Shown here in pieces: positions 30,378 to 49,909 of a stretch of 64,000 bases of DNA. Source of the DNA: Eledone cirrhosa. Taxonomy: Eukaryota. Location of the stretch: contig CAXHJY010000292.1 in assembly GCA_964016885.1 (NCBI GenBank), positions 1-64,000 of the forward strand. Reading direction: 5' to 3'. The notes under the pieces were generated by a model. That model did not search any database. It was not told the DNA's origin and saw nothing but the letters and a program-made list of their open reading frames with translations. The position numbers and the translations under genes were made by a program. Positions within the stretch are counted from its first letter, which is position 1, and the number at the start of each line of letters is the position of its first letter.

Positions 30378-30953
30378 TAGATAGATAGAGAGAGAGTTTT
30401 GGACAGTATAAATGAAGCAATGAGACTATAGCGAGGAGGAGCTCCACTTAATGATGAGATATATTTGGTAGGAAGTATAGCACTGAAGTGTGATTCAAGC
30501 TACTGAAATTGATGTAGAATAGATAATAGTAGGAGCTTGTATGGTACTTGGTGCAGATAAGACATTAAGAACAACAAGAAATAGATTTAATTAGCAATAA
30601 ATATAAGATTGCGGCGTGGAATATATCTAATTAATAATAGTGAGTAGAAATATGAAAGTCGTGTCTAGCAATATAAATAGCTAGTAATTGACATAATATT
30701 CTATCCATATATCCACATGTAGATAGCTAGATAACTAGAAAGATATCTTTCTGTGTGCGTGTAAGTCTCTCTCTCTCTCTCTTTCTCTCATATATATATG
30801 TATACACATATGCATATATATATATATAAATATGCATATATATTTATATATATACATATGCATATATATATATACATATATATACATATACATATATACA
30901 TATATTATAATGAAATGACAGGAGGCTGGATTTGTGTAAATCCTTGAAAGGTT

Positions 30954-31029
30954 TATTATACTATGATCATTTCAATGACCGGGTTCCGTATGAATCCGGT
31001 GATATCATCAGGTATTCGAAATATAATAC
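30954..31029 (-). ncRNA. Minimal type I hammerhead ribozyme (family 2)
   Basis: Minus strand: atac-CUGAUGA-tatcaccggattc(atacg)gaacccggtcatt-GAAA-tgatca-UA-gtat. Full catalytic core, stem I atac/gtat, palindromic stem III; stem II has mismatches. Confidence 0.75.
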
Positions 31030-31199
31030 GTGATTGTAATAGATAAAATCCATGGGGCTGAAAATCAAGGACCCGAGGGCGATCGCTATCCTGTACCTTC
31101 TACCTTAGCCGGTTGCCCTCGAGTGACGTGGCTAAAGCTTACAGTGTGCTACTACCGGTCAGATAGAGGCTCCATCAAGTAGTGAACCTCAAACCTGAT

Positions 31200-33142
<1,943 letters not shown>

Positions 33143-34060
33143 ATCTTTGCTCCCAAATACAGGGAGTCCTCAACCAATTCCAGCAGCTTCCCGCCTATAT
33201 TAGTGATCCCCTCTGGCTTCTCAACATTCTCTACTAGATATTTTGTTTTAGTCTCATTCATTCTCAGCCCCACACTCATCGACACAGTCTCAACCTCCCG
33301 CATCAAATCCTCTGCCTCCTTCACTGTATTTGTCACCAAAACTATGTCGTCGGCAAATTCACCATCCGATACCTTTTTCGCCCTAACTCTCCTGCTCTGA
33401 GCCGGTGCTACAGTAAAGCCAGAGTCCTGGTGTTTCTCCAGTGCAAGTTGCATACAATAGTCCACTACGATGACAAAAAAGTAGGGAGCCAATGTAGGGA
33501 GCAAAGATTGGGAATACGGAAGATGATGTGGTTGAGAGGAAGAGCAAGGCCTGGGCTGCGTGCCATAGCTTGAGATCGGTGTGGAAGTTGGACCTTCGTA
33601 GAGACCTGAAAGTCCGCCTCTTCATTGCTGTAGTGGAGTCTGTGCTGCTGTATGGGTCTGAGACTTGGACACTGACCAAGAAACTCACTCAGATGGTGGA
33701 TGGGTGCTATACGAGAATGCTGAGGATGGCTCTGAACATTAATCAGTATACACTGAGGATGAAAAACTCAGAGCTGTATGGCAGCATCCCAAAAGTCAGC
33801 TCAAAAGTGACACAGAGGAGACTGAGGTTAGCTGGACATGCTCACCGACATCCAGAGTTGACATTGCACTCAGTACTCCTTTGGGAGCCCCTACATGGAC
33901 ACACTAGAAGAGGAAGACAAAGGTTAAGGTATGTTGATGCCCTCAGGACAGACACTGGTCTGTTGGAGATGCAGGACATGGCAGCGATAATGAGGGACAG
34001 AGACCGCTGGAGAGAACTCGTCCATAGATCTCGGGAATTTTACCCGCCTTAGATAGATAG

Positions 34061-34126: not shown

Positions 34127-34175
34127 GCATACATATATATATATATATATATAAGATCAAATGATGGTTAAAGGA

Positions 34176-34261
34176 GTTCCATATATTTTATTATGCGCAT
34201 TTCAAAAACAAACATCATCAAGCAATAATATTTGTGTTTTCATCAGATAAAACAGGAGAAC
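34176..34261 (-). ncRNA. Type I hammerhead ribozyme at the 3' end of the left PLE copy
   Basis: Minus strand ttttat-CUGAUGA-stem II-GAAA-tgcgca-UA-ataaaa. Confidence 0.88.
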
Positions 34262-35228
34262 ATGATATGAAGGCTAAAAAACACTTGTTGATAGTGCAGT
34301 TTTAAATCAACATATGAAAAGTGGTTTTAGATTGATGTGTGATATTGGGAAAAATATTTTATTTTGAGAGGGGTGGGGGAGGATGAAAAGGGAAGGAGAT
34401 GAGAGGGAGAGATGGGTGATAGAGAGAAAGAGATAGTTTTTATAACTGAGAGGAGATATATTTTTTACATAGAGGGGTTGAAAACCGTTGGAAGATACTG
34501 TATAAATTAAAAATTTTGAAAATTAACGAAGGGAGGATATGTGCGAGGAAAAAATATTTTATTTAGGGAGGGGGGGGCGATGAAAAAAAGGGGGGAGGAG
34601 ATGAGAGTGAAGGTGGAGAGGGAGAGATGGGTGATAGAGAGAAAGAGATAGTTTTTATAACTGAGAAAAAGATATATTGTTTTAATATAGAGAGGTTGGG
34701 AACCGTTGGAAGATAATGTATAAATTAAAGGAATTTGAAAATTAACGAAGGGAAATTATGTATGAAGATAGAGAGAAAAAAATAATAATTGTGGGTGAAT
34801 ATTCTAACGTCAAAAGAAGAAATGTATGTATTGTGGCAATTTCAAAATTAGCGAAGAGAAAAATTGTTAAGGTTTGTGTGTAGAAGGATTTGAGAAAAAT
34901 AATGTGAAGTTAAAGTTTGTATATTGAATTGATATGTATTAATAATGAGTTCGTTGATGGGGAGAAAAAAAATAATAATAAATTAAGGATGAAATTGAGA
35001 TTAAAAAGATTTATGATAGAGAGAAAAAATAATAATGATTGCGGATGAATATTCAAAATGTCAAAAACAAATGTTATTATTTTACGAGAAGATAGAATGA
35101 GGGTAATGAGTAAACGAGTATTATAGAGTGTATAATGCCCTTTAAAGTAAGGTAGATGGGTATATTTTAAAGAGGTGTATGTATATGTGCCTTTGAGAAA
35201 AGATTCTAAATTGATAAAGAATTGAATA

Positions 35229-37452
35229 TTAACTGTATACTTTGTGAAAAGTTCTATGGAATTTATGCAGGCAGATAGAAAACAAATCTGAGCGTCTATT
35301 TATTATAGAATCTAGGTTAGAGATAATGGTAAATTTTTCATTTAGGCAGAGATTACAGATTTTAGATAGAGAGCTGTTCAAGTATGAGGATGCAGAAGAA
35401 ATCTTTTTCCAAAAGATGTTATATTTAATGTTTTTGTCTTTTAAGGACCATATGAGTTCTGAGAGAGCAGTGTTAGTTCTTTTAAGTTTGTATTTGAAAG
35501 ATGAATGATGATTATAGAGACGAGCTTTAAAAGAGGTGGAAGTGGAGCCAAAATAGGTGAAGGAATTGGTGCTAGTTATAATTTTACATTCATAAATTAA
35601 GTTTTTATCGAGGCAATGGTTGTTGAGAGGACATTTATTTTTAATGCGGCAGTTGCAATTAGAGAGATTATTAATGAGTGATCTAGTGTTATCTATAGAA
35701 GGAATTGGATTGGAGAAGTTGTTTGCGATAGGAATAATAGGAATAATAGTTTCTTGATTTAGAGTTGGATTATGAACATTTAGCGAAGTTGTGTTTGACG
35801 TTGTATTTGGGTTTACAGAAGTTAGCCTAGGGTTTACAATGACGTCGGGAGTACTATTACTGTTATTATGAAATTCAATATTGGAAGGAAGAGATTTAGT
35901 ATTTAATATTTTGTTGTTGTGTTTAGAGATGATGTTGGAAATATTGGAGGATGTAGAATACGAAAATTTGATGGTGTGTTTGTTAAATATTTTACTATAG
36001 ATATGTGAGGGAGGGAAGCATTTATTTAAGGCACTAAAAAATAATTTAGGAATATTGTTATTAATAGAGATGGAGAAAGGAGCATTATACCAGATTATGT
36101 TTTTGTATCTAGGTCTTTTATTAAAATTATTGGAATGGTCATGATTAATTATTCTACTGTAAGTTTTCCTAGAACTTGTTTCTTTATTATATTTGATTTT
36201 GTCTGGATAGCCGGCTTTAGAAAGTGCGTTATTATAGTAATTGGCGTTAGCATCAAAGATGTTTTTATTAGAAGATATGTTAGATATTCTATTTCCAATA
36301 TTATTAACTATAGCATTCTTGATATTGGTAGGATGGTTAGATTTAAAGTTAACATAATTAAGATTCTCATTGTTTTTATGGTAAGGGTAATATAGGCCAG
36401 TGTCAAGATTAAGAGATACATCCAAGAAATTAGCTAGTTTGATACTATTATCAAATTCAATTTTTAGGTTATGTTGGTTAAAGAGATTACGTATATTGTT
36501 CTTAATAATATTAAGTTTAACTATATTGCAATTTAGGATAGTAAAGAGTCCATCGTCACGATAAATTCCACCGCGAAGTTGAGGAATTTTCCGACTCAAA
36601 GAGTTCAAAATGAAGATACCAATTAAATCAGTCAATTGGGATGAATCGGATGCTCCCATTGTGATGTCGAAGTTGTTAGAGGTATCGGCTCTGGTCCAAT
36701 ATTCGTTGTTGAACTCTAGGATGGTTTTACGTGCGGTGAGGATGATGTGAAGTTCATCTGTGGTGATGTCAGAATATTTAAGTGCGAAAGATAGAGCATT
36801 ATTGAGAAGTGAAGGCGAAATGGAGGAATAGTAGCTGGCAATATCGAATTGAATAAATTTTAGTTTGTTTTTATTATCCAATTTGTTGAACCAGCCAATC
36901 ACTTCAGAAGTACCAAACCATAAATTTAGGTTTAAAGAAGAGCAATTAGAACTAACCTGTGGGATAATCCTATCCAAGATGGCTTTACTAACAACCCCCA
37001 GATCAGATTTAGAGGGGGCGATTAATCTAACAGGTAGTTCAGTGCGAAAATTGTTTTTGTGATCCTTGAGATTTATCCTCGGAGTTCTTGGGAGGAATGG
37101 TTCGGTCTTTTTTTCAATGCCAAGTTTTGACATAATCTCATAGGCTTCAAGGTTTATGCATTCTAAATTTTTATGGTTGGTTTTACGATACTTTTTCCTA
37201 AGTTCCTTTAGGATAAGGTTGTTATAATTATCCTTGGAAATACCATATAGGTTATTGGTTTTGTCAGAGTGGACTAAAACATTTTTTGAGGAATTTAGGT
37301 TATAGATTGTGTTCTTGAGATTTACAAGGTGCTCTTGTCCTTTGTAAGGGTATCTCTTGAATTTAAGATTTTTTATTATTTTAGTTAATTCTTCCTCGAA
37401 TTGTGCTAGATTTTTGTTGGAAGGAGGATTTCGTCTAGAATTAAAAAGATGA
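35229..37452 (-). CDS. PLE polyprotein: reverse transcriptase + C-terminal GIY-YIG endonuclease (first ATG at 37133 gives 634 aa; frame open ~106 codons further upstream)
   Basis: Upstream NPP..FEEEL..IKNLKF..VHSDKTNNLY; RT motifs FDIASYYSSI, ITMGASDS, YRDDGL, NFLDVSL; CNCx5Cx5C; LIY..YFGST..FKARLYNH; CNLCLNEK. Confidence 0.95.
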
Positions 37453-37982
37453 TCAAAATTAGCGAAGAGAAAAATTGTTAAGGTTTGTTTGTAGAAGGAT
37501 TTGAGAAAAATAATGTGAAGTTAAAGTTTGTATATGTCATTGATATGTATTAATAATGAGTTCGTTGATGGGGAGAAAAAATTAATAATAAATTAAGGAT
37601 GAAATTGAGATTAAAAAGATTTATGATAGAGAGAAAAAATAATAATGATTGCGGATGAATATTCAAAATGTCAAAAACAAATGTTATTATTTTACGAGAA
37701 GATAAAATGAGAGTAATGAGTAAACGAGTATTATAGAGTGTATAATGCCCTTTAAAGTAAGGTAGATGGGTATATTTTAAAGAGGTGTATGTATATGTGC
37801 CTTTGAGAAAAGATTCTAAATTGATAAAGAATTGAATATTAACTGTATACTTTGTGAAAAGTTCTATGGAATTTATGCAGGCAGATAGAAAACAAATCTG
37901 AGCGTCTATTTATTATAGAATCTAGGTTAGAGATAATGGTAAATTTTTCATTTAGGCAGAGATTACAGATTTTAGATAGAGA
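37453..37982 (-). repeat. Pseudo-LTR-like duplicate of the PLE ORF end and proximal 3' UTR
   Basis: Near-identical direct repeat of 34842-35372. Confidence 0.93.
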
Positions 37983-37996
37983 TAGAGTTTGAGATT

Positions 37997-39901
37997 ATGT
38001 CAAAACTTGGCATTGAAAAAAAGACCGAACCATTCCTCCCAAGAACTCCGAGGATAAATCTCAAGGATCACAAAAACAATTTTCGCACTGAACTACCTGT
38101 TAGATTAATCGCCCCCTCTAAATCTGATCTGGGGGTTGTTAGTAAAGCCATCTTGGATAGGATTATCCCACAGGTTAGTTCTAATTGCTCTTCTTTAAAC
38201 CTAAATTTATGGTTTGGTACTTCTGAAGTGATTGGCTGGTTCAACAAATTGGATAATAAAAACAAACTAAAATTTATTCAATTCGATATTGCCAGCTACT
38301 ATTCCTCCATTTCGCCTTCACTTCTCAATAATGCTCTATCTTTCGCACTTAAATATTCTGACATCACCACAGATGAACTTCACATCATCCTCACCGCACG
38401 TAAAACCATCCTAGAGTTCAACAACGAATATTGGACCAGAGCCGATACCTCTAACAACTTCGACATCACAATGGGAGCATCCGATTCATCCCAATTGACT
38501 GATTTAATTGGTATCTTCATTTTGAACTCTTTGAGTCGGAAAATTCCTCAACTTCGCGGTGGAATTTATCGTGACGATGGACTCTTTACTATCCTAAATT
38601 GCAATATAGTTAAACTTAATATTATTAAGAACAATATACGTAATCTCTTTAACCAACATAACCTAAAAATTGAATTTGATAATAGTATCAAACTAGCTAA
38701 TTTCTTGGATGTATCTCTTAATCTTGACACTGGCCTATATTACCCTTACCATAAAAACAATGAGAATCTTAATTATGTTAACTTTAAATCTAACCATCCT
38801 ACCAATATCAAGAATGCTATAGTTAATAATATTGGAAATAGAATATCTAACATATCTTCTAATAAAAACATCTTTGATGCTAACGCCATTTACTATAATA
38901 ACGCACTTTCTAAAGCCGGCTATCCAGACAAAATCAAATATAATAAAGAAACAAATTCTAGGAAAACTTACAGTAGAATAATTAATCATGACCATTCCAA
39001 TAATTTTAATAAAATACCTAGATACAAAAACATAATCTGGTATAATGCTCCTTTCTCCATCTCTATTAATAACAATATTCCTAAATTATTTTTTAGTGCC
39101 TTAAATAAATGCTTCCCTCCCTCACATATCTATAGTAAAATATTTAACAAACACACCATCAAATTTTCGTATTCTACATCCTCCAATATTTCCAACATCA
39201 TCTCTAAACACAACAACAAAATATTAAATACTAAATCTCTTCCTTCCAATATTGAATTTCATAATAACAGTAATAGTACTCCCGACGTCATTGTAAACCC
39301 TAGGCTAACTTCTGTAAACCCAAATACAACGTCAAACACAACTTCGCTAAATGTTCATAATCCAACTCTAAATCAAGAAACTATTATTCCTATTATTCCT
39401 ATCGCAAACAACTTCTCCAATCCAATTCCTTCTATAGATAACACTAGATCACTCATTAATAATCTCTCTAATTGCAACTGCCGCATTAAAAATAAATGTC
39501 CTCTCAACAACCATTGCCTCGATAAAAACTTAATTTATGAATGTAAAATTATAACTAGCACCAATTCCTTCACCTATTTTGGCTCCACTTCCACCTCTTT
39601 TAAAGCTCGTCTCTATAATCATCATTCATCTTTCAAATACAAACTTAAAAGAACTAACACTGCTCTCTCAGAACTCATATGGTCCTTAAAAGACAAAAAC
39701 ATTAAATATAACATCTTTTGGAAAAAGATTTCTTCTGCATCCTCATACTTGAACAGCTCTCTATCTAAAATCTGTAATCTCTGCCTAAATGAAAAATTTA
39801 CCATTATCTCTAACCTAGATTCTATAATAAATAGACGCTCAGATTTGTTTTCTATCTGCCTGCATAAATTCCATAGAACTTTTCACAAAGTATACATTTA
39901 A
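37997..39901 (+). CDS. PLE RT + GIY-YIG endonuclease, second copy (5'-truncated, lacks the DKT region)
   Basis: 634 aa; differs from the minus copy at four residues (N/I, S/N, R/I, terminal S/I). Confidence 0.95.
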   Translation: MSKLGIEKKTEPFLPRTPRINLKDHKNNFRTELPVRLIAPSKSDLGVVSKAILDRIIPQVSSNCSSLNLNLWFGTSEVIGWFNKLDNKNKLKFIQFDIASYYSSISPSLLNNALSFALKYSDITTDELHIILTARKTILEFNNEYWTRADTSNNFDITMGASDSSQLTDLIGIFILNSLSRKIPQLRGGIYRDDGLFTILNCNIVKLNIIKNNIRNLFNQHNLKIEFDNSIKLANFLDVSLNLDTGLYYPYHKNNENLNYVNFKSNHPTNIKNAIVNNIGNRISNISSNKNIFDANAIYYNNALSKAGYPDKIKYNKETNSRKTYSRIINHDHSNNFNKIPRYKNIIWYNAPFSISINNNIPKLFFSALNKCFPPSHIYSKIFNKHTIKFSYSTSSNISNIISKHNNKILNTKSLPSNIEFHNNSNSTPDVIVNPRLTSVNPNTTSNTTSLNVHNPTLNQETIIPIIPIANNFSNPIPSIDNTRSLINNLSNCNCRIKNKCPLNNHCLDKNLIYECKIITSTNSFTYFGSTSTSFKARLYNHHSSFKYKLKRTNTALSELIWSLKDKNIKYNIFWKKISSASSYLNSSLSKICNLCLNEKFTIISNLDSIINRRSDLFSICLHKFHRTFHKVYI

Positions 39902-40868
39902 TATTCAATTCTTTATCAATTTAGAATCTTTTCTCAAAGGCACATATACATACACCTCTTTAAAATATACCCATCTACCTTACTTTAAAGGGCATTATAC
40001 ACTCTATAATACTCGTTTACTCATTACCCTCATTCTATCTTCTCGTAAAACAATAACATTTGTTTTTGACATTTTGAATATTCATCCGCAATCATTATTA
40101 TTTTTTCTCTCTATCATAAATCTTTTTAATCTCAATTTCATCCTTAATTTATTATTATTTTTTTCTCCCCATCAACGAACTCATTATTAATACATATCAA
40201 TTCAATATACAAACTTTAACTTCACATTATTTTTCTCAAATCCTTCTACACACAAACCTTAACAATTTTTCTCTTCGCTAATTTTGAAATTGCCACAATA
40301 CATACATTTCTTCTTTTGACGTTAGAATATTCACCCACAATTATTATTTTTTTCTCTCTATCTTCATACATAATTTCCCTTCGTTAATTTTCAAATTCCT
40401 TTAATTTATACATTATCTTCCAACGGTTCCCAACCTCTCTATATTAAAACAATATATCTTTTTCTCAGTTATAAAAACTATCTCTTTCTCTCTATCACCC
40501 ATCTCTCCCTCTCCACCTTCACTCTCATCTCCTCCCCCCTTTTTTTCATCCTTTCCCCCCCCTCCCTAAATAAAATATTTTTTCCTCGCACATATCCTCC
40601 CTTCGTTAATTTTCAAAATTTTTAATTTATACAGTATCTTCCAACGGTTTTCAACCCCTCTATGTAAAAAATATATCTCCTCTCAGTTATAAAAACTATC
40701 TCTTTCTCTCTATCACCCATCTCTCCCTCTCATCTCCTTCCCTTTTCATCCCCCCCCCCCTCTCTAAATAAAATATTTTTCCCAATATCACACATCAATC
40801 TAAAACCACTTTTCATATGTTGATTTAAAACTGCACTATCAACAAGTGTTTTTTAGCCTTCATATCAT

Positions 40869-40954
40869 GTTCTCCTGTTTTATCTGATGAAAACACAAAT
40901 ATTATTGCTTGATGATGTTTGTTTTTGAAATGCGCATCATAAAATATATGGAAC
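40869..40954 (+). ncRNA. Type I hammerhead ribozyme at the 3' end of the right PLE copy
   Basis: ttttat(40878-83) CTGATGA(40884-90) aaacacaaatattatt-gctt-gatgatgtttgttttt GAAA(40927-30) tgcgca TC ataaaa(40939-44); distal gttct/ggaac pairing. Confidence 0.9.
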
Positions 40955-41070
40955 TCCTTTAACCATCTTTTGATCTTATATTATGCATACTCCAGTCCCA
41001 CAAACTGTAGAGTGCTTCTTATCCGATATCTGCATTGCTTTATTGTACTACAATAAAACTCACCTCCCAC

Positions 41071-41107
<37 letters not shown>

Positions 41108-46702: not shown

Positions 46703-49595
46703 CATCATCATCATCATCATCACCGTTTTACGTCCGTTCTTCCACGCTAGCATGGGTTAGACGGGTTGTCCTGTTGTGGGCAGTGTCTGGTCGGCTGACC
46801 ATGCCTTGCTCATACAGGAACTGATCTGGCTTGATTTCTACAGCTGGATGCCCTTCCTAACACCAACCTCATTTACAGTGAGTGCTGGGTGCTTTTTCGT
46901 GGCGCCTACACGTCCACTTTACAGTGTGGGCTGGGTGCTTTTTTGCCGTGGCACCTCCACGACCACCTTGCGGTGGGGGGGGGGGGGGCATATTGTTTAT
47001 ATGCTTCAGCATGTACCCATGGGAGGTCGGGTACCCTGTATTACTGCGTGACGCCAGAAGTCACGGTCGTGTGTCATTGACTTTGAGAGGTGTAGTTGGG
47101 TAAGGTCGGCTTTTATCACCTCATCCCAAGTCATCTTGGGTCTCCCCACTCCGCGGTTTCCATCAACTTCTAGTGCTCTGCACCTTTTTATGCAGCTGTC
47201 ATCCTTCATACGCATCACATGTCCATACCAGCGTAACCGCCTCTCCTGCACGCAGCATTTGATTCCTCTTATGCTCAGTCTCTCTCTCAATTCATTTATG
47301 CTTTGTCGTTCACGTATATTACTGTTACACATCCATCGGAGCATGCAGGCTTCGTTTCTCTCTAATCTACGTAGGTCTTCCACCTTCAGCGCCCAGGTCT
47401 CACTACCATGCAACATCGCTGTTCGGATACACGCATCATACAGTCTGCCTTTCATTCTGAGGGAGAAGCCTTTTGCAGCTAGCAGTGGTAGTAGTTCCCT
47501 AAACTTCTTCCATCCCGTTCTTACCCTAGTTATTGTACTTTCTGAGCACCCACCTCCGTTGCTAATTCGGTCACCTAGGTAGCAGAAGCTGTCTACTGTT
47601 TCTACAGGGCCCTCCCAGAGATTGGTGGTACTTGTTTCCTGTGGCTGTTTGCTTGCTGTTTCAGCACAGCTGCTGCATGTGAATCCTACATTCTTAATTA
47701 AGCTTCCTGAGATCCCGGTACATCTCTTGTGTACCCATTGTTTGCATTTGGGGCAAAGAATGGAGTTCCTACCTACACCTTTCCTACATACTGAGCAAGG
47801 CCATTTCCCTGAGGGGATCTGGGTTCTGTTTTCTCGTCTACTTATAAGGACCTTAGTCTTTGTCATGTTGACTTTGAGGCCCTTTCTCTCTAGTCCCTGC
47901 TTCCAGGTTTGGAATTTATTCTCTAGTTCTACCATAGATTCAGCTATGAGTGCGAGGTCATCAGCATACAGGAGTTCCCATGGGCATCCGGTCTTAAACT
48001 CCTCCGTTATTGCCTGCAGGACTATGATGAACAGGAGAGGGCTAAGAACAGAGCCCTGGTGGACCCCAACCTGTACGCTAAATTCCTCGCTATACTCATT
48101 GCCAATCCTAACTTTGCTGACTGCTCCCCTATACATGGCTTGTACCGCTTTCACAAGCCATTCATCTACTCCTAGTTTTCTAGGAGCCCACCAGATTACT
48201 GCACGTGGAACTCTGTCAAAGGCTTTCTCAAGGTCGACAAATGCCAAGTAGAGTGGCTTACTTTTAGCTAGGTACTTTTCCTGTAATTGCCTCACAAGGA
48301 AGAGCGCATCAGTGGTGCCTTTCCCTGGAACAAACCCAAATTGCATCTCGTCTATATTCACCCGGTCCCTAATCAGCTGTGCTATAACTCTTTCTGTTAC
48401 TTTCATGACCTGGTCCATCAACTTTATACCTCTATAGTTTCCTCTATCTAGTGCATCGCCTTTACCTTTGTAGCAGTTGACAATGATGCTACTGCACCAA
48501 TCTTTTGGTATGGCCCCCTCTAGTATTACCTGGTTAACGATACGTGTGGTTATAGTGTGACCTACAGACCCAGATGCCTTCAGCATCTCGGCAGCTATAC
48601 CCGATGGACCGGTTGCCTTCCCTATCTTCATATCTCTGATTGCCTTACTTACTACGCTGCCGCTGACTTGTACTGCTGGTCCCTCTATAGGGTCTACGTG
48701 GAGTAGGGTCTCTTCTTCCCATGCATTCTCCTCATTTAGTAATCTATCATAATGACTCTTCCATGCATCTTTCTTCTCAGCACTTGTGAGGGCAAGCTCA
48801 CCTTTATCATTCCGGATACACTTCTCTCCAATGACATCACAACTATCTCTGACACACTGCCTCGCAATCTTGAATACCTCCTGTTTCTGGTCCTCACGTT
48901 GTAAAACATGCTTGAATTTTCTATCCTCTGCTTCCCTCCTAGCTAAGTATACTTGTCGCCTAGCTTCCCTCTTGGTCTCTATGTAATGTACCCTGCTCCC
49001 CCCGTTCTTCCATTCTTTCCATGCCTGTCTCTTGGCCTTGACTGCTTCATCTACCTTATTGTTCCACCACCAAGTCACTCTCCTCCTGCTTGAGGTCTTA
49101 CTCCAGCCACAAACCTCATCCGTCGCCTCTAGTAAGTTATTTTTTAGGAACTCCCAGTTCTCTTCTACGTTAAATGTCTCTATCTGTTCTTCTTTACTGT
49201 CGTAGGCGTTGAGTAAAATATCTTTAAATCTGTTACTGGTTGAGGGGACTTTCAGCTTCCAGATCTTTCTTCTCCAGGTTGGCCTCTGTTTCAGGGCTCG
49301 TCTAGTTCTGACCGTGAGGTCGCTGACAACTAAGCTATGTTGGGATGTACATTCCTCACTAGGGAAGGCTTTTGTGTTTACGACCGTCCATCTGTCACGT
49401 CCTCTGATGAGGATAAAATCTAACTGACTAGAGTGCTCCCCTGATCTATAGGTGATCAGGTGGTTGTCGGGTTTTTTAAAGTTTGTGTTACATATCGACA
49501 TGTCATTGGCGTCGCAGAATTCTAGAAGTCTGAATCCTTCCTCATTCCTTGTGCCAACTCCATGGCCTCCATGTACTCTATTGAAGCCGTCGCAG
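46701..49595 (-). mobile_element. 5'-truncated RTE LINE (subfamily A1), ORF uninterrupted
   Basis: Starts within the APE domain (DGFNRVHGGHGVGTRNEEG); 3' UTR and (ATG)n tail. Confidence 0.96.
47006..49501 (-). CDS. RTE ORF: C-terminal part of APE endonuclease + RT with embedded PHD-type zinc finger
   Basis: SQLDFIL..TSQHSLV (APE); KATGPSG, YKGKGD, NYRGIKL, QFGF, DLEKAFD, GVHQGSVLSPLLF, LLYADD, CYLG; C4HC3 cluster. Confidence 0.93.
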   Translation of the reverse strand: MSICNTNFKKPDNHLITYRSGEHSSQLDFILIRGRDRWTVVNTKAFPSEECTSQHSLVVSDLTVRTRRALKQRPTWRRKIWKLKVPSTSNRFKDILLNAYDSKEEQIETFNVEENWEFLKNNLLEATDEVCGWSKTSSRRRVTWWWNNKVDEAVKAKRQAWKEWKNGGSRVHYIETKREARRQVYLARREAEDRKFKHVLQREDQKQEVFKIARQCVRDSCDVIGEKCIRNDKGELALTSAEKKDAWKSHYDRLLNEENAWEEETLLHVDPIEGPAVQVSGSVVSKAIRDMKIGKATGPSGIAAEMLKASGSVGHTITTRIVNQVILEGAIPKDWCSSIIVNCYKGKGDALDRGNYRGIKLMDQVMKVTERVIAQLIRDRVNIDEMQFGFVPGKGTTDALFLVRQLQEKYLAKSKPLYLAFVDLEKAFDRVPRAVIWWAPRKLGVDEWLVKAVQAMYRGAVSKVRIGNEYSEEFSVQVGVHQGSVLSPLLFIIVLQAITEEFKTGCPWELLYADDLALIAESMVELENKFQTWKQGLERKGLKVNMTKTKVLISRRENRTQIPSGKWPCSVCRKGVGRNSILCPKCKQWVHKRCTGISGSLIKNVGFTCSSCAETASKQPQETSTTNLWEGPVETVDSFCYLGDRISNGGGCSESTITRVRTGWKKFRELLPLLAAKGFSLRMKGRLYDACIRTAMLHGSETWALKVEDLRRLERNEACMLRWMCNSNIRERQSINELRERLSIRGIKCCVQERRLRWYGHVMRMKDDSCIKRCRALEVDGNRGVGRPKMTWDEVIKADLTQLHLSKSMTHDRDFWRHAVIQGTRPPMGTC

Positions 49596-49836
49596 TGTTG
49601 GGGAGGGTCATATTTGTGTAATATTGCCAGAATTAATAACAGAACACACTCACTGTTTGGTTGGTTTTCGCTTCTCGCTGTCTTTTATATATATATATCT
49701 GCGATCTAACTTACTCGGTCCTCAATGTTGCCATTGACTGACCGGCGGTCAAAAATAATACAGATACAATATAGACAAACACATATATATATAGTTTACA
49801 TAATTTACATAAATCTTTCGTTGCACATCTGCAACA
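49596..49836 (-). mobile_element. Possible solo LTR
   Basis: TGTTG...CAACA termini, TATA box, and shares tatata..gacagcgaga(a)gcg with the LTR at 538-839; no TSD seen. Confidence 0.45.
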
Positions 49837-49909
49837 TCGTCAGTGGTGTTATATTCATTGTTCCTCCTGTTGTGTTGTATGTCTACGCCATTTTTTTTGT
49901 GTTCCAAAA

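What the first reader, a model, noticed from the sequence alone, without database searches (positions are those of the whole stretch)
30908..31199. ORF-less ~290-bp insert carrying a second, unrelated hammerhead ribozyme
The insert is flanked by (TA)n on both sides. Its minus strand has the full CUGAUGA/GAAA/UH core, with a different stem II and a different palindromic stem III (TGATCA versus TGCGCA in the PLE). A ~50-nt tail follows, and an upstream ctcgagggc/gccctcggg helix is possible. It is either the 3' end of another PLE family or a non-autonomous retrozyme-like element. Palindromic stem III is the known signature of minimal hammerheads that cleave as dimers.
Basis: partly seen in the sequence, partly recalled or inferred. 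Interest (0 to 1): 0.72.

Follow-up and report, generated by a model that had tools for sequence, protein, structure and literature searches.

The report
Fragment of protein-free 2-kb Penelope parasite
The 290-base insert is a truncated, two-armed copy of an abundant jumping element of about 2 kb that encodes no protein, carries a hammerhead ribozyme motif, and likely borrows its copying enzyme from Penelope-type retrotransposons in the same genome.

Summary
The hammerhead motif is real (core 31011-30962, minus strand). The insert is neither a 290-nt retrozyme nor, in any copy examined, the end of an ORF-coding element. It is a 5'-truncated copy of a family with 5,811 exact motif matches in this genome. 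Complete copies have hammerhead-to-hammerhead units of 1.8-3.3 kb, mostly 2.0-2.4 kb, with no ORF over 126 aa, in three subfamilies 71-83% alike. Insertions are back-to-back arms ending at two fixed sites about 140 nt apart (18 of 20 pairs), the footprint of two internal reverse-transcription starts shown in vitro for a Penelope-like element. A hairpin beside the short end is shared with Hydra-like elements, including the one in this window, the likely helper type. Cleavage, dimer action and circular RNA are untested: arms run across the cut site, the stems show no covariation above shuffles, and no RNA run was listed. New: about twice the longest animal retrozyme unit in the papers read.

The parts
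30902..31169 (-). Short-end arm: last ~158 nt of the pseudo-LTR upstream of the hammerhead, the hammerhead, and ~55 nt to the family's fixed short end (end ambiguous within 30902-30908 because AT-rich)
   Evidence: 94-99% identical to 41 other genomic matches, nearly all spanning query 31-292
31169..31198 (+). Long-end arm: last 30 nt of the family's 140-nt tail, inverted against the other arm, 1-nt overlap at the junction
   Evidence: 93% matches to the tail end in L003, L004, L006, L007, L013, L019, L028, L029; junction shown; same layout in L257, L258
30958..31015 (-). Type I hammerhead motif: stem I 31015-31012/30961-30958, core CUGAUGA 31011-31005, stem II 31003-30975 with U.U at its base, GAAA, palindromic stem III 30970-30963, predicted cut 3' of 30962
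   Evidence: all 11 core positions identical in the three subfamily majority sequences
31072..31123 (-). GC-rich upstream hairpin; two mismatches in this copy, 11-14 bp in the family
   Evidence: one compensatory change (C-G in A and B, U-A in 11 of 11 C copies) and G.U swaps at three pairs
30790..30901 (.). (TA)n-type microsatellite target, left
31199..33169 (.). (TA)n-type microsatellite target, right
34150..41075 (.). Not part of the insert: two-armed autonomous Hydra-like PLE (ORFs 35229-37520 minus, 37976-39901 plus; hammerheads at 34246 and 40884), candidate helper type
   Evidence: same short/long end layout; DKT, CxCX5C, C-terminal endonuclease, 821-aa frames in many ~100% identical copies
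40988..41014 (+). Tail hairpin of the autonomous PLE, shared in form and position with the non-autonomous family (absent from the truncated window copy)

Best explanation
The insert is a truncated copy of a multicopy, ORF-less element with hammerhead-bounded units of about 2 kb, likely copied in trans by a Hydra-like Penelope reverse transcriptase-endonuclease that would cut both strands of (TA)n DNA and start one cDNA at each of two fixed internal RNA sites. Shown: family size, unit length, absence of ORF, back-to-back arms, two fixed ends about +110 and +255 from hammerhead C3, (TA)n flanks, shared haplotype of the two arms, shared tail hairpin. Inferred by analogy with the Anolis PAc element (PMC11167929): double-strand cutting, internal initiation, tail = distance between start sites. 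Inferred: the hairpin recruits the protein; the two cDNAs join at their truncated ends; the template is usually RNA not cut at the hammerhead (uncut or re-ligated). The window copy lacks the hairpin and the body and would be dead on arrival. The hammerhead is probably functional but weak or protein-assisted in source elements.
For: 5,811 exact 20-mer matches, control 0. Tandem units 1.8-3.3 kb at 13 locus groups; 11 units tested have longest stop-free frames of 87-126 aa and 8 units give no tblastn match to 10 PLE/RT proteins below E 0.35. Of 134 arms chosen by pseudo-LTR similarity alone, 35 extend 1 kb or more upstream, all in the non-coding body; no arm is contiguous with an upstream same-strand PLE ORF (1 of 422 arm intervals flagged, separated by an inverted arm), whereas 7 of 20 loci of another hammerhead family show the ORF upstream. 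First 100 motif hits: 23 outward-facing pairs; of the first 20 pairs 18 have one short and one long end. Arms of one insertion differ at 0.59 common-variant sites per 100 nt (34 pairs) against 5.3 for random pairs. Bulged hairpin at +104 to +112 in 59 of 84 long-ended family copies, in the window PLE and in a second ORF-linked Hydra-like family, with changed inner pairs (CGT/ACG, CAG/CTG, CAA/TTG); 0-3 of 2000 shuffles. Hammerhead region differs at 2-4 of about 77 positions between subfamilies whose pseudo-LTRs are 71-83% alike.
Against: Only about 280 of more than 5,800 hammerhead copies were inspected, so a rare ORF-bearing parent is not excluded. No DNA homology to any autonomous PLE was found, so the helper is not identified; three head-to-head junctions join family arms to three different PLE families (L037, L129, L287), and the one with complementary short and long ends (L129) involves a family without the hairpin. 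The hairpin pattern was drawn after seeing these sequences, and its outer stem has a mismatch in subfamilies A and C. Hammerhead stems show no covariation above shuffles (454 of 500 reach it); core positions are not significantly better kept per copy (1.7% versus 2.4%, p 0.15). The active fold is 14 kcal/mol above the minimum as monomer and 11 above two monomers as dimer. L043 (two arms) and L114 (two pseudo-LTRs) differ at 8 common-variant sites each, against a single-template rule.
Confidence: 0.8

Rival explanations
1. The element is a giant retrozyme in the strict sense: hammerheads cut out a 2-kb monomer, it is ligated to a circle, and the circle is the template for the two reverse transcriptases.
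For: Head-to-tail units with variable overshoot (17 to about 860 nt upstream of the first hammerhead); arms cross the cut site without scars (2 indels at +48/49 in 267 copies); repeats within an arm are identical or nearly so in L128, L111, L281; hammerhead conserved across subfamilies.
Against: Arms with two or more hammerheads are rare (10 of 134; 0 same-strand pairs within 4 kb among the first 100 hits). Uncut read-through RNA explains the same crossing, and was the main substrate in vitro for PAc (PMC11167929). In L281 the two tandem units share two private changes that the short arm lacks, which fits a later DNA duplication. L114 is mosaic.
Confidence: 0.25
2. The copies are truncated 3' ends or internal deletions of an autonomous PLE of the same family that still exists or is extinct; the ORF-less units are by-products.
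For: Most arms are short (median 180 nt upstream) and cannot show what lay upstream; the body resembles PLE 3' UTRs in being pyrimidine-rich with internal duplications.
Against: All 35 long arms are non-coding; three diverged subfamilies share the same ORF-less collinear body, so the ORF-less form itself has replicated for a long time; positive control finds ORFs for another family.
Confidence: 0.08
3. The insert is a self-contained ~290-nt retrozyme monomer.
For: Size and (TA)n flanks; small retrozymes of 310-615 nt are noted elsewhere in this genome by earlier scan reports (not checked).
Against: Its 5' boundary is an inversion junction, not a family boundary; other copies continue upstream for up to 2 kb; no 290-nt tandem was seen.
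Confidence: 0.01

Closest known systems
Metazoan non-LTR retrozymes (Cervera and de la Pena 2020, PMC7229834, passages read; Li, Clavereau and Pollet 2026, 10.64898/2026.07.22.740005, parts 1-3 of 5 read)
   Same: ORF-less, type I hammerhead at each unit boundary, GC under 45% (37-39%), U.U at base of stem II as in axolotl HHR_Amex2, proposed PLE dependence
Non-autonomous Chlamys elements such as MRC1 (Craig et al. 2021, PMC8557442, passages and section 11 read)
   Same: Non-autonomous PLEs that form pseudo-LTRs and head-to-tail insertions
   Different: Green algae; most Chlamys lack canonical hammerheads; they generally share 3' sequence with an autonomous family, which was not found here
Hydra-clade PLEs (PMC8557442) and the PAc mechanism (Frangieh et al. 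2024, PMC11167929, parts 1-2 of 4 read)
   Same: (TA)n targets, hammerhead in pseudo-LTR, inverted truncated arm, tail at one end only, two fixed ends beside an AC-rich stem-loop
   Different: No ORF; tail about 140 nt against the 30-40 nt described
PLE minimal/palindromic hammerheads (Cervera and de la Pena 2014, PMC4209133, parts 1-2 of 4 read)
   Same: Short stem I, long stem II, palindromic helix III, dual motifs on opposite strands 100-700 bp apart
   Different: G10.1-C11.1 pair, highly conserved there, is absent (U.U, A-U or C.U here)

Membership tests
Type I hammerhead ribozyme | Core CUGANGA, GAAA, UH with three helices | tested here: met
   core identical in three subfamilies
Type I hammerhead ribozyme | G10.1-C11.1 pair at the base of stem II | tested here: not met
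   U.U in A and B, A-U in C; a U.U variant cleaves weakly in axolotl (PMC7229834)
Type I hammerhead ribozyme | Covariation in stems | tested here: inconclusive
   96% paired but nearly invariant; 1 pair changes on both sides, not above shuffles
Type I hammerhead ribozyme | Self-cleavage, alone or as dimer | not testable with these tools
   needs in vitro assay; folding predicts a competing structure
Non-autonomous Penelope-like element | No protein-coding capacity | tested here: met
Non-autonomous Penelope-like element | Pseudo-LTR partial tandems, inverted truncated arm, tail at one end | tested here: met
Non-autonomous Penelope-like element | Microsatellite (TA)n targeting | tested here: met
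   116 of 131 classified terminal ends run into TA repeats (18 further copies continue into the body)
Non-autonomous Penelope-like element | Sequence shared with an autonomous partner | tested here: inconclusive
   no alignable DNA; shared hairpin only
Metazoan non-LTR retrozyme | Short unit (150-450 nt; up to 972 bp reported) | tested here: not met
   1.8-3.3 kb
Metazoan non-LTR retrozyme | Tandem units each with a hammerhead | tested here: met
   13 locus groups, but a minority of copies
Metazoan non-LTR retrozyme | Expressed as monomeric and circular RNA | not testable with these tools
   no RNA holder listed
Hydra clade (window PLE, candidate helper) | C-terminal endonuclease, DKT, CxCX5C, RWK, hammerhead, (TA)n target | tested here: inconclusive
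   DKT, CxCX5C, hammerhead, TA target present; RWK reads RWT; no tree built

The most novel reading that the evidence does not exclude
A 2-kb protein-free RNA, cut by its hammerheads and circularised, has replicated through at least three subfamilies by mimicking one small hairpin that Hydra-like Penelope proteins use to pick their RNA; it would be the largest animal retrozyme circle described in the papers read, with a second conserved internal element, and would show that retrozymes grade into a broad, under-counted class of kilobase non-autonomous PLEs missed by searches capped at 1 kb.
Probability: 0.22. Interest if true: 0.68.

Novelty: new variant of a known kind. Interest (0 to 1): 0.42.

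Why it matters
It extends hammerhead-bearing non-autonomous PLE parasites to about twice the longest animal unit in the surveys read, a size their pipelines could not detect. Because the RNA has no ORF, whatever it has conserved across subfamilies (hammerhead, upstream helix, tail hairpin, a repeated 60-nt motif) is a short list of cis needs for Penelope-type mobilisation, and the young, intact Hydra-like family in the same window offers a protein to test them with. The insert itself is an ordinary dead fragment, and the two-armed footprint is explained by published biochemistry.

Tried and rejected
Rfam: no match for the insert or a full unit at E<=10; the whole-window scan listed 150 of 294 hits, all microsatellite-like miRNA models. 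RNA: no RNA holder listed; three contig runs of one study cover the unit but cannot show ends or expression. First reading of the window PLE as Naiad was dropped: its endonuclease is C-terminal. First reading of the unit as 2.1 kb with an altered tail came from one local cluster on C3 that carries a deletion. Helper search: protein search returned only the window family; two families with similar stem II were searched, one is ORF-linked, neither aligns with this family beyond neighbouring insertions; profile searches with the tail and internal motif hit only family copies (lowest 45 rows of each list viewed). Pfam gave no hits for three PLE proteins. Bacterial promoter scan is not applicable. 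Internal 60-nt motif as an RNA junction: 93% paired, no covariation above shuffles (one search used a mis-registered third helix and is void). No pile-up of arm 5' ends at the cut site (0 of 60). Literature searches for non-autonomous Penelope elements listed nothing describing this family; Repbase/Dfam and paper supplements were not seen and may hold it as an unclassified repeat.

Full report
Observation. The minus strand of 30908-31199 holds a complete type I hammerhead motif: stem I AUAC/GUAU, CUGAUGA at 31011-31005, a 10-pair stem II with two internal mismatches, GAAA, the palindrome AUGAUCAU and H17 at 30962. A strict descriptor finds it and the two hammerheads of the neighbouring PLE in the window, and nothing in 30 shuffles. 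The base of stem II is U.U, not G-C. Rfam does not recognise it. Both flanks are TA-type microsatellite.

The family. The window is the start of contig C319 of a 3.0-Gb genome. A DNA search gave 1,758 candidates, 40 scored, 42 matches at 94-100%; an exact 20-mer from the hammerhead's 3' half occurs 5,811 times, control 0. Nearly all matches begin at insert position 31. Positions 2-31 match the end of the family's tail on the opposite strand. The insert is therefore two back-to-back arms: 30 nt of tail and about 265 nt of pseudo-LTR, joined with a 1-nt overlap.

Walking upstream and downstream showed what the full element is. After the hammerhead come about 55 nt, a 140-nt tail, then a non-coding body with internal duplications that leads back to the next pseudo-LTR and hammerhead. 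Hammerhead-to-hammerhead distances are 2,069, 2,181, 2,262, 2,276, 2,362, 2,639 and 3,346 bp at seven dispersed subfamily A loci, 2,101-2,333 bp in one duplicated cluster on C3, 2,056 and 1,904 bp in subfamily C, and 2,077, 2,058 and 1,806 bp (the last with a deletion) in subfamily B. Eleven units were translated: longest stop-free frame 87-126 aa; eight were searched with ten PLE and RT proteins from these loci, best E 0.35. Clustering 149 copies gave A (51), B (34), C (12, plus 7 with inverted upstream parts) and 45 in small groups; majority sequences are 71-83% alike over the pseudo-LTR but differ at only 2-4 of about 77 hammerhead positions, none in the core. The three bodies are collinear.

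Is there an ORF-bearing form? Among 134 arms picked by pseudo-LTR similarity alone, the median upstream extent is 180 nt; 35 reach 1 kb or more and all stay in the non-coding body. Five same-strand PLE ORFs within 4.5 kb upstream are separated from the arm by TA repeats, an inverted arm or other sequence; one of 422 arm intervals had one within 300 bp, with an inverted arm between. As a positive control, 7 of 20 loci of another hammerhead family show the endonuclease ORF upstream. About 280 copies of more than 5,800 were seen, so a rare parent is not excluded.

Insertion anatomy. Of the first 100 motif hits on C1, 46 form 23 outward-facing pairs within 3 kb and none forms a same-strand pair within 4 kb. 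I fetched the first 20 pairs and the first 20 singles. In 18 of 20 pairs one arm ends at +98 to +113 from C3 and the other at +249 to +256; two pairs have two short-type ends. Nine of the 20 singles have a second arm, two with the window's layout. Of 149 hammerhead copies classified, 66 end long in TA, 50 short in TA, 18 continue into the body, 15 are other. The two arms usually share haplotype: 46 common-variant differences in 7,844 aligned bases over 34 pairs, against 5.3 per 100 in 387 random pairs; L043 is an exception. Arm 5' ends do not pile up at the cut site (0 of 60 within +45..+55) but 13 of 60 fall at -120..-95, the 5' strand of the upstream helix, against 2 and 4 in the neighbouring bins (coordinates read by hand). 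The autonomous PLE at 34150-41075 has the same short and long ends.

Mechanism. Frangieh et al. (PMC11167929, parts 1-2 of 4 read) show that a PLE protein cuts both strands at AT-rich DNA, starts reverse transcription at two internal sites beside an AC-rich stem-loop, that the tail is the sequence between them, that uncut RNA is the main substrate and that the hammerhead cleaves only with protein. The two ends here fit that scheme with a 140-nt spacing; this step is inference. Prompted by an earlier scan note (e1-8664520) I looked for a hairpin shared with coding families. A bulged hairpin begins at +104 to +112, right at the short end, in 59 of 84 long-ended family copies, in the window PLE, in a second ORF-linked family (L172) and in one of two copies of a third family; its inner three pairs differ between families and stay paired. 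It is absent from five other hammerhead families examined. Shuffles give it 0-3 times in 2,000, but the pattern was drawn from these sequences. The window PLE has DKT, CxCX5C and a C-terminal endonuclease, as Craig et al. describe for Hydra (RWK reads RWT, no tree built), and many near-identical 821-aa frames. Hydra-like proteins are thus the likely helpers. Against this, three head-to-head junctions join family arms to three different PLE families, and the best-fitting one (L129) is with a family that lacks the hairpin and whose clade I did not determine.

Ribozyme activity. For: invariant core across diverged subfamilies; palindromic helix III (intermolecular duplex -7.2 kcal/mol), the signature Cervera and de la Pena link to dimers (PMC4209133); a U.U variant cleaves in axolotl, better as a dimer (PMC7229834). 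Against or neutral: no covariation above shuffles in 56 aligned copies (24 of 51 A, 20 of 34 B, 12 of 12 C); no significant per-copy protection of the core in 110 copies not selected on it (p 0.15); predicted energies -1.3 (monomer) against -15.2, and -19.2 (dimer) against -30.4 kcal/mol; only 1 of 9 predicted Xenopus retrozymes cleaved in vitro. The upstream helix has one compensatory pair and three G.U swaps between subfamilies (no shuffle control).

Circle or read-through? Arms cross the cut site without excess indels, so the template was uncut or re-ligated. Repeats within an arm are near-identical in some loci and mosaic in L114. L281 has two units 0.2% apart that share private changes absent from its short arm, which fits later duplication as well as a circle. 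Multi-unit arms are rare. No RNA data were available. I rate linear read-through at least as likely as a circle.

Comparison and novelty. It works like a non-autonomous PLE and meets the tested features of one; it fails the size feature of metazoan non-LTR retrozymes (150-450 nt; 51-972 bp in a 2026 survey capped at 1,000 bp), and circular RNA is untested, so I do not file it as a retrozyme member. Non-autonomous PLEs are known in Chlamydomonas. Seven literature searches listed no description of this family; repeat databases and supplements were not seen. Earlier scan notes report the same two-armed footprint for 310-615-nt units in this genome but none matched this family by sequence. Those notes call the host a cephalopod; I did not test that. 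Verdict: new variant of a known kind, interest 0.42.

Noticed in passing
window 34150-41075: Two-armed autonomous PLE, Hydra-like, with short and long ends about 100 nt apart; family is young (150 of 150 listed hits 99-100% identical, many with 821-aa frames).
   Followed up: partly
L114:3459-3530, L196:1086-1457, L179 and others: A ~60-nt motif occurs two or three times in the body of all three subfamilies while its flanks diverge; it can fold as a three-way junction (93% paired) but shows no covariation above shuffles. Promoter or protein-binding site?
   Followed up: partly
L129:2840, L287:5089, L037:7380: Family arms joined head-to-head, without spacer, to 5'-truncated arms of three different autonomous PLE families; possible two-RNA insertions or later deletions.
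   Followed up: partly
L114:2093 versus 4274; L043: Mosaic insertions whose two pseudo-LTRs or arms belong to different sub-lineages (8 shared-variant differences each); possible template switch between RNAs.
   Followed up: partly
L241-L280: Arm 5' ends cluster at -120 to -95 (13 of 60), at the 5' strand of the GC-rich helix.
   Followed up: partly
many loci: At least ten other hammerhead families with different palindromic stem III; several also lack the G-C pair at the base of stem II.
   Followed up: no
G000:C3:89.4-90.4 Mb (L031, L032, L040, L039, L061, L064): Cluster of near-identical duplicated loci carrying a deleted 2.1-kb tandem variant.
   Followed up: partly
L329:668-1086: A fourth, more diverged relative of the family (70-79% identity).
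   Followed up: no
L161:3062-3547: Open frame resembling a von Willebrand D domain exon (label recalled, not tested) lies between two family copies, which may sit in introns.
   Followed up: no
L172:5080-6013: Hammerheads of another family 557 bp apart on one strand plus an inverted third; possible small retrozyme.
   Followed up: no
window 49598-49898, 47006-49684, 1257-2403: Fragment of another PLE pseudo-LTR; an 892-aa RTE-like LINE frame; LTR-retrotransposon RT/RNase H fragments (labels recalled from sequence appearance).
   Followed up: no
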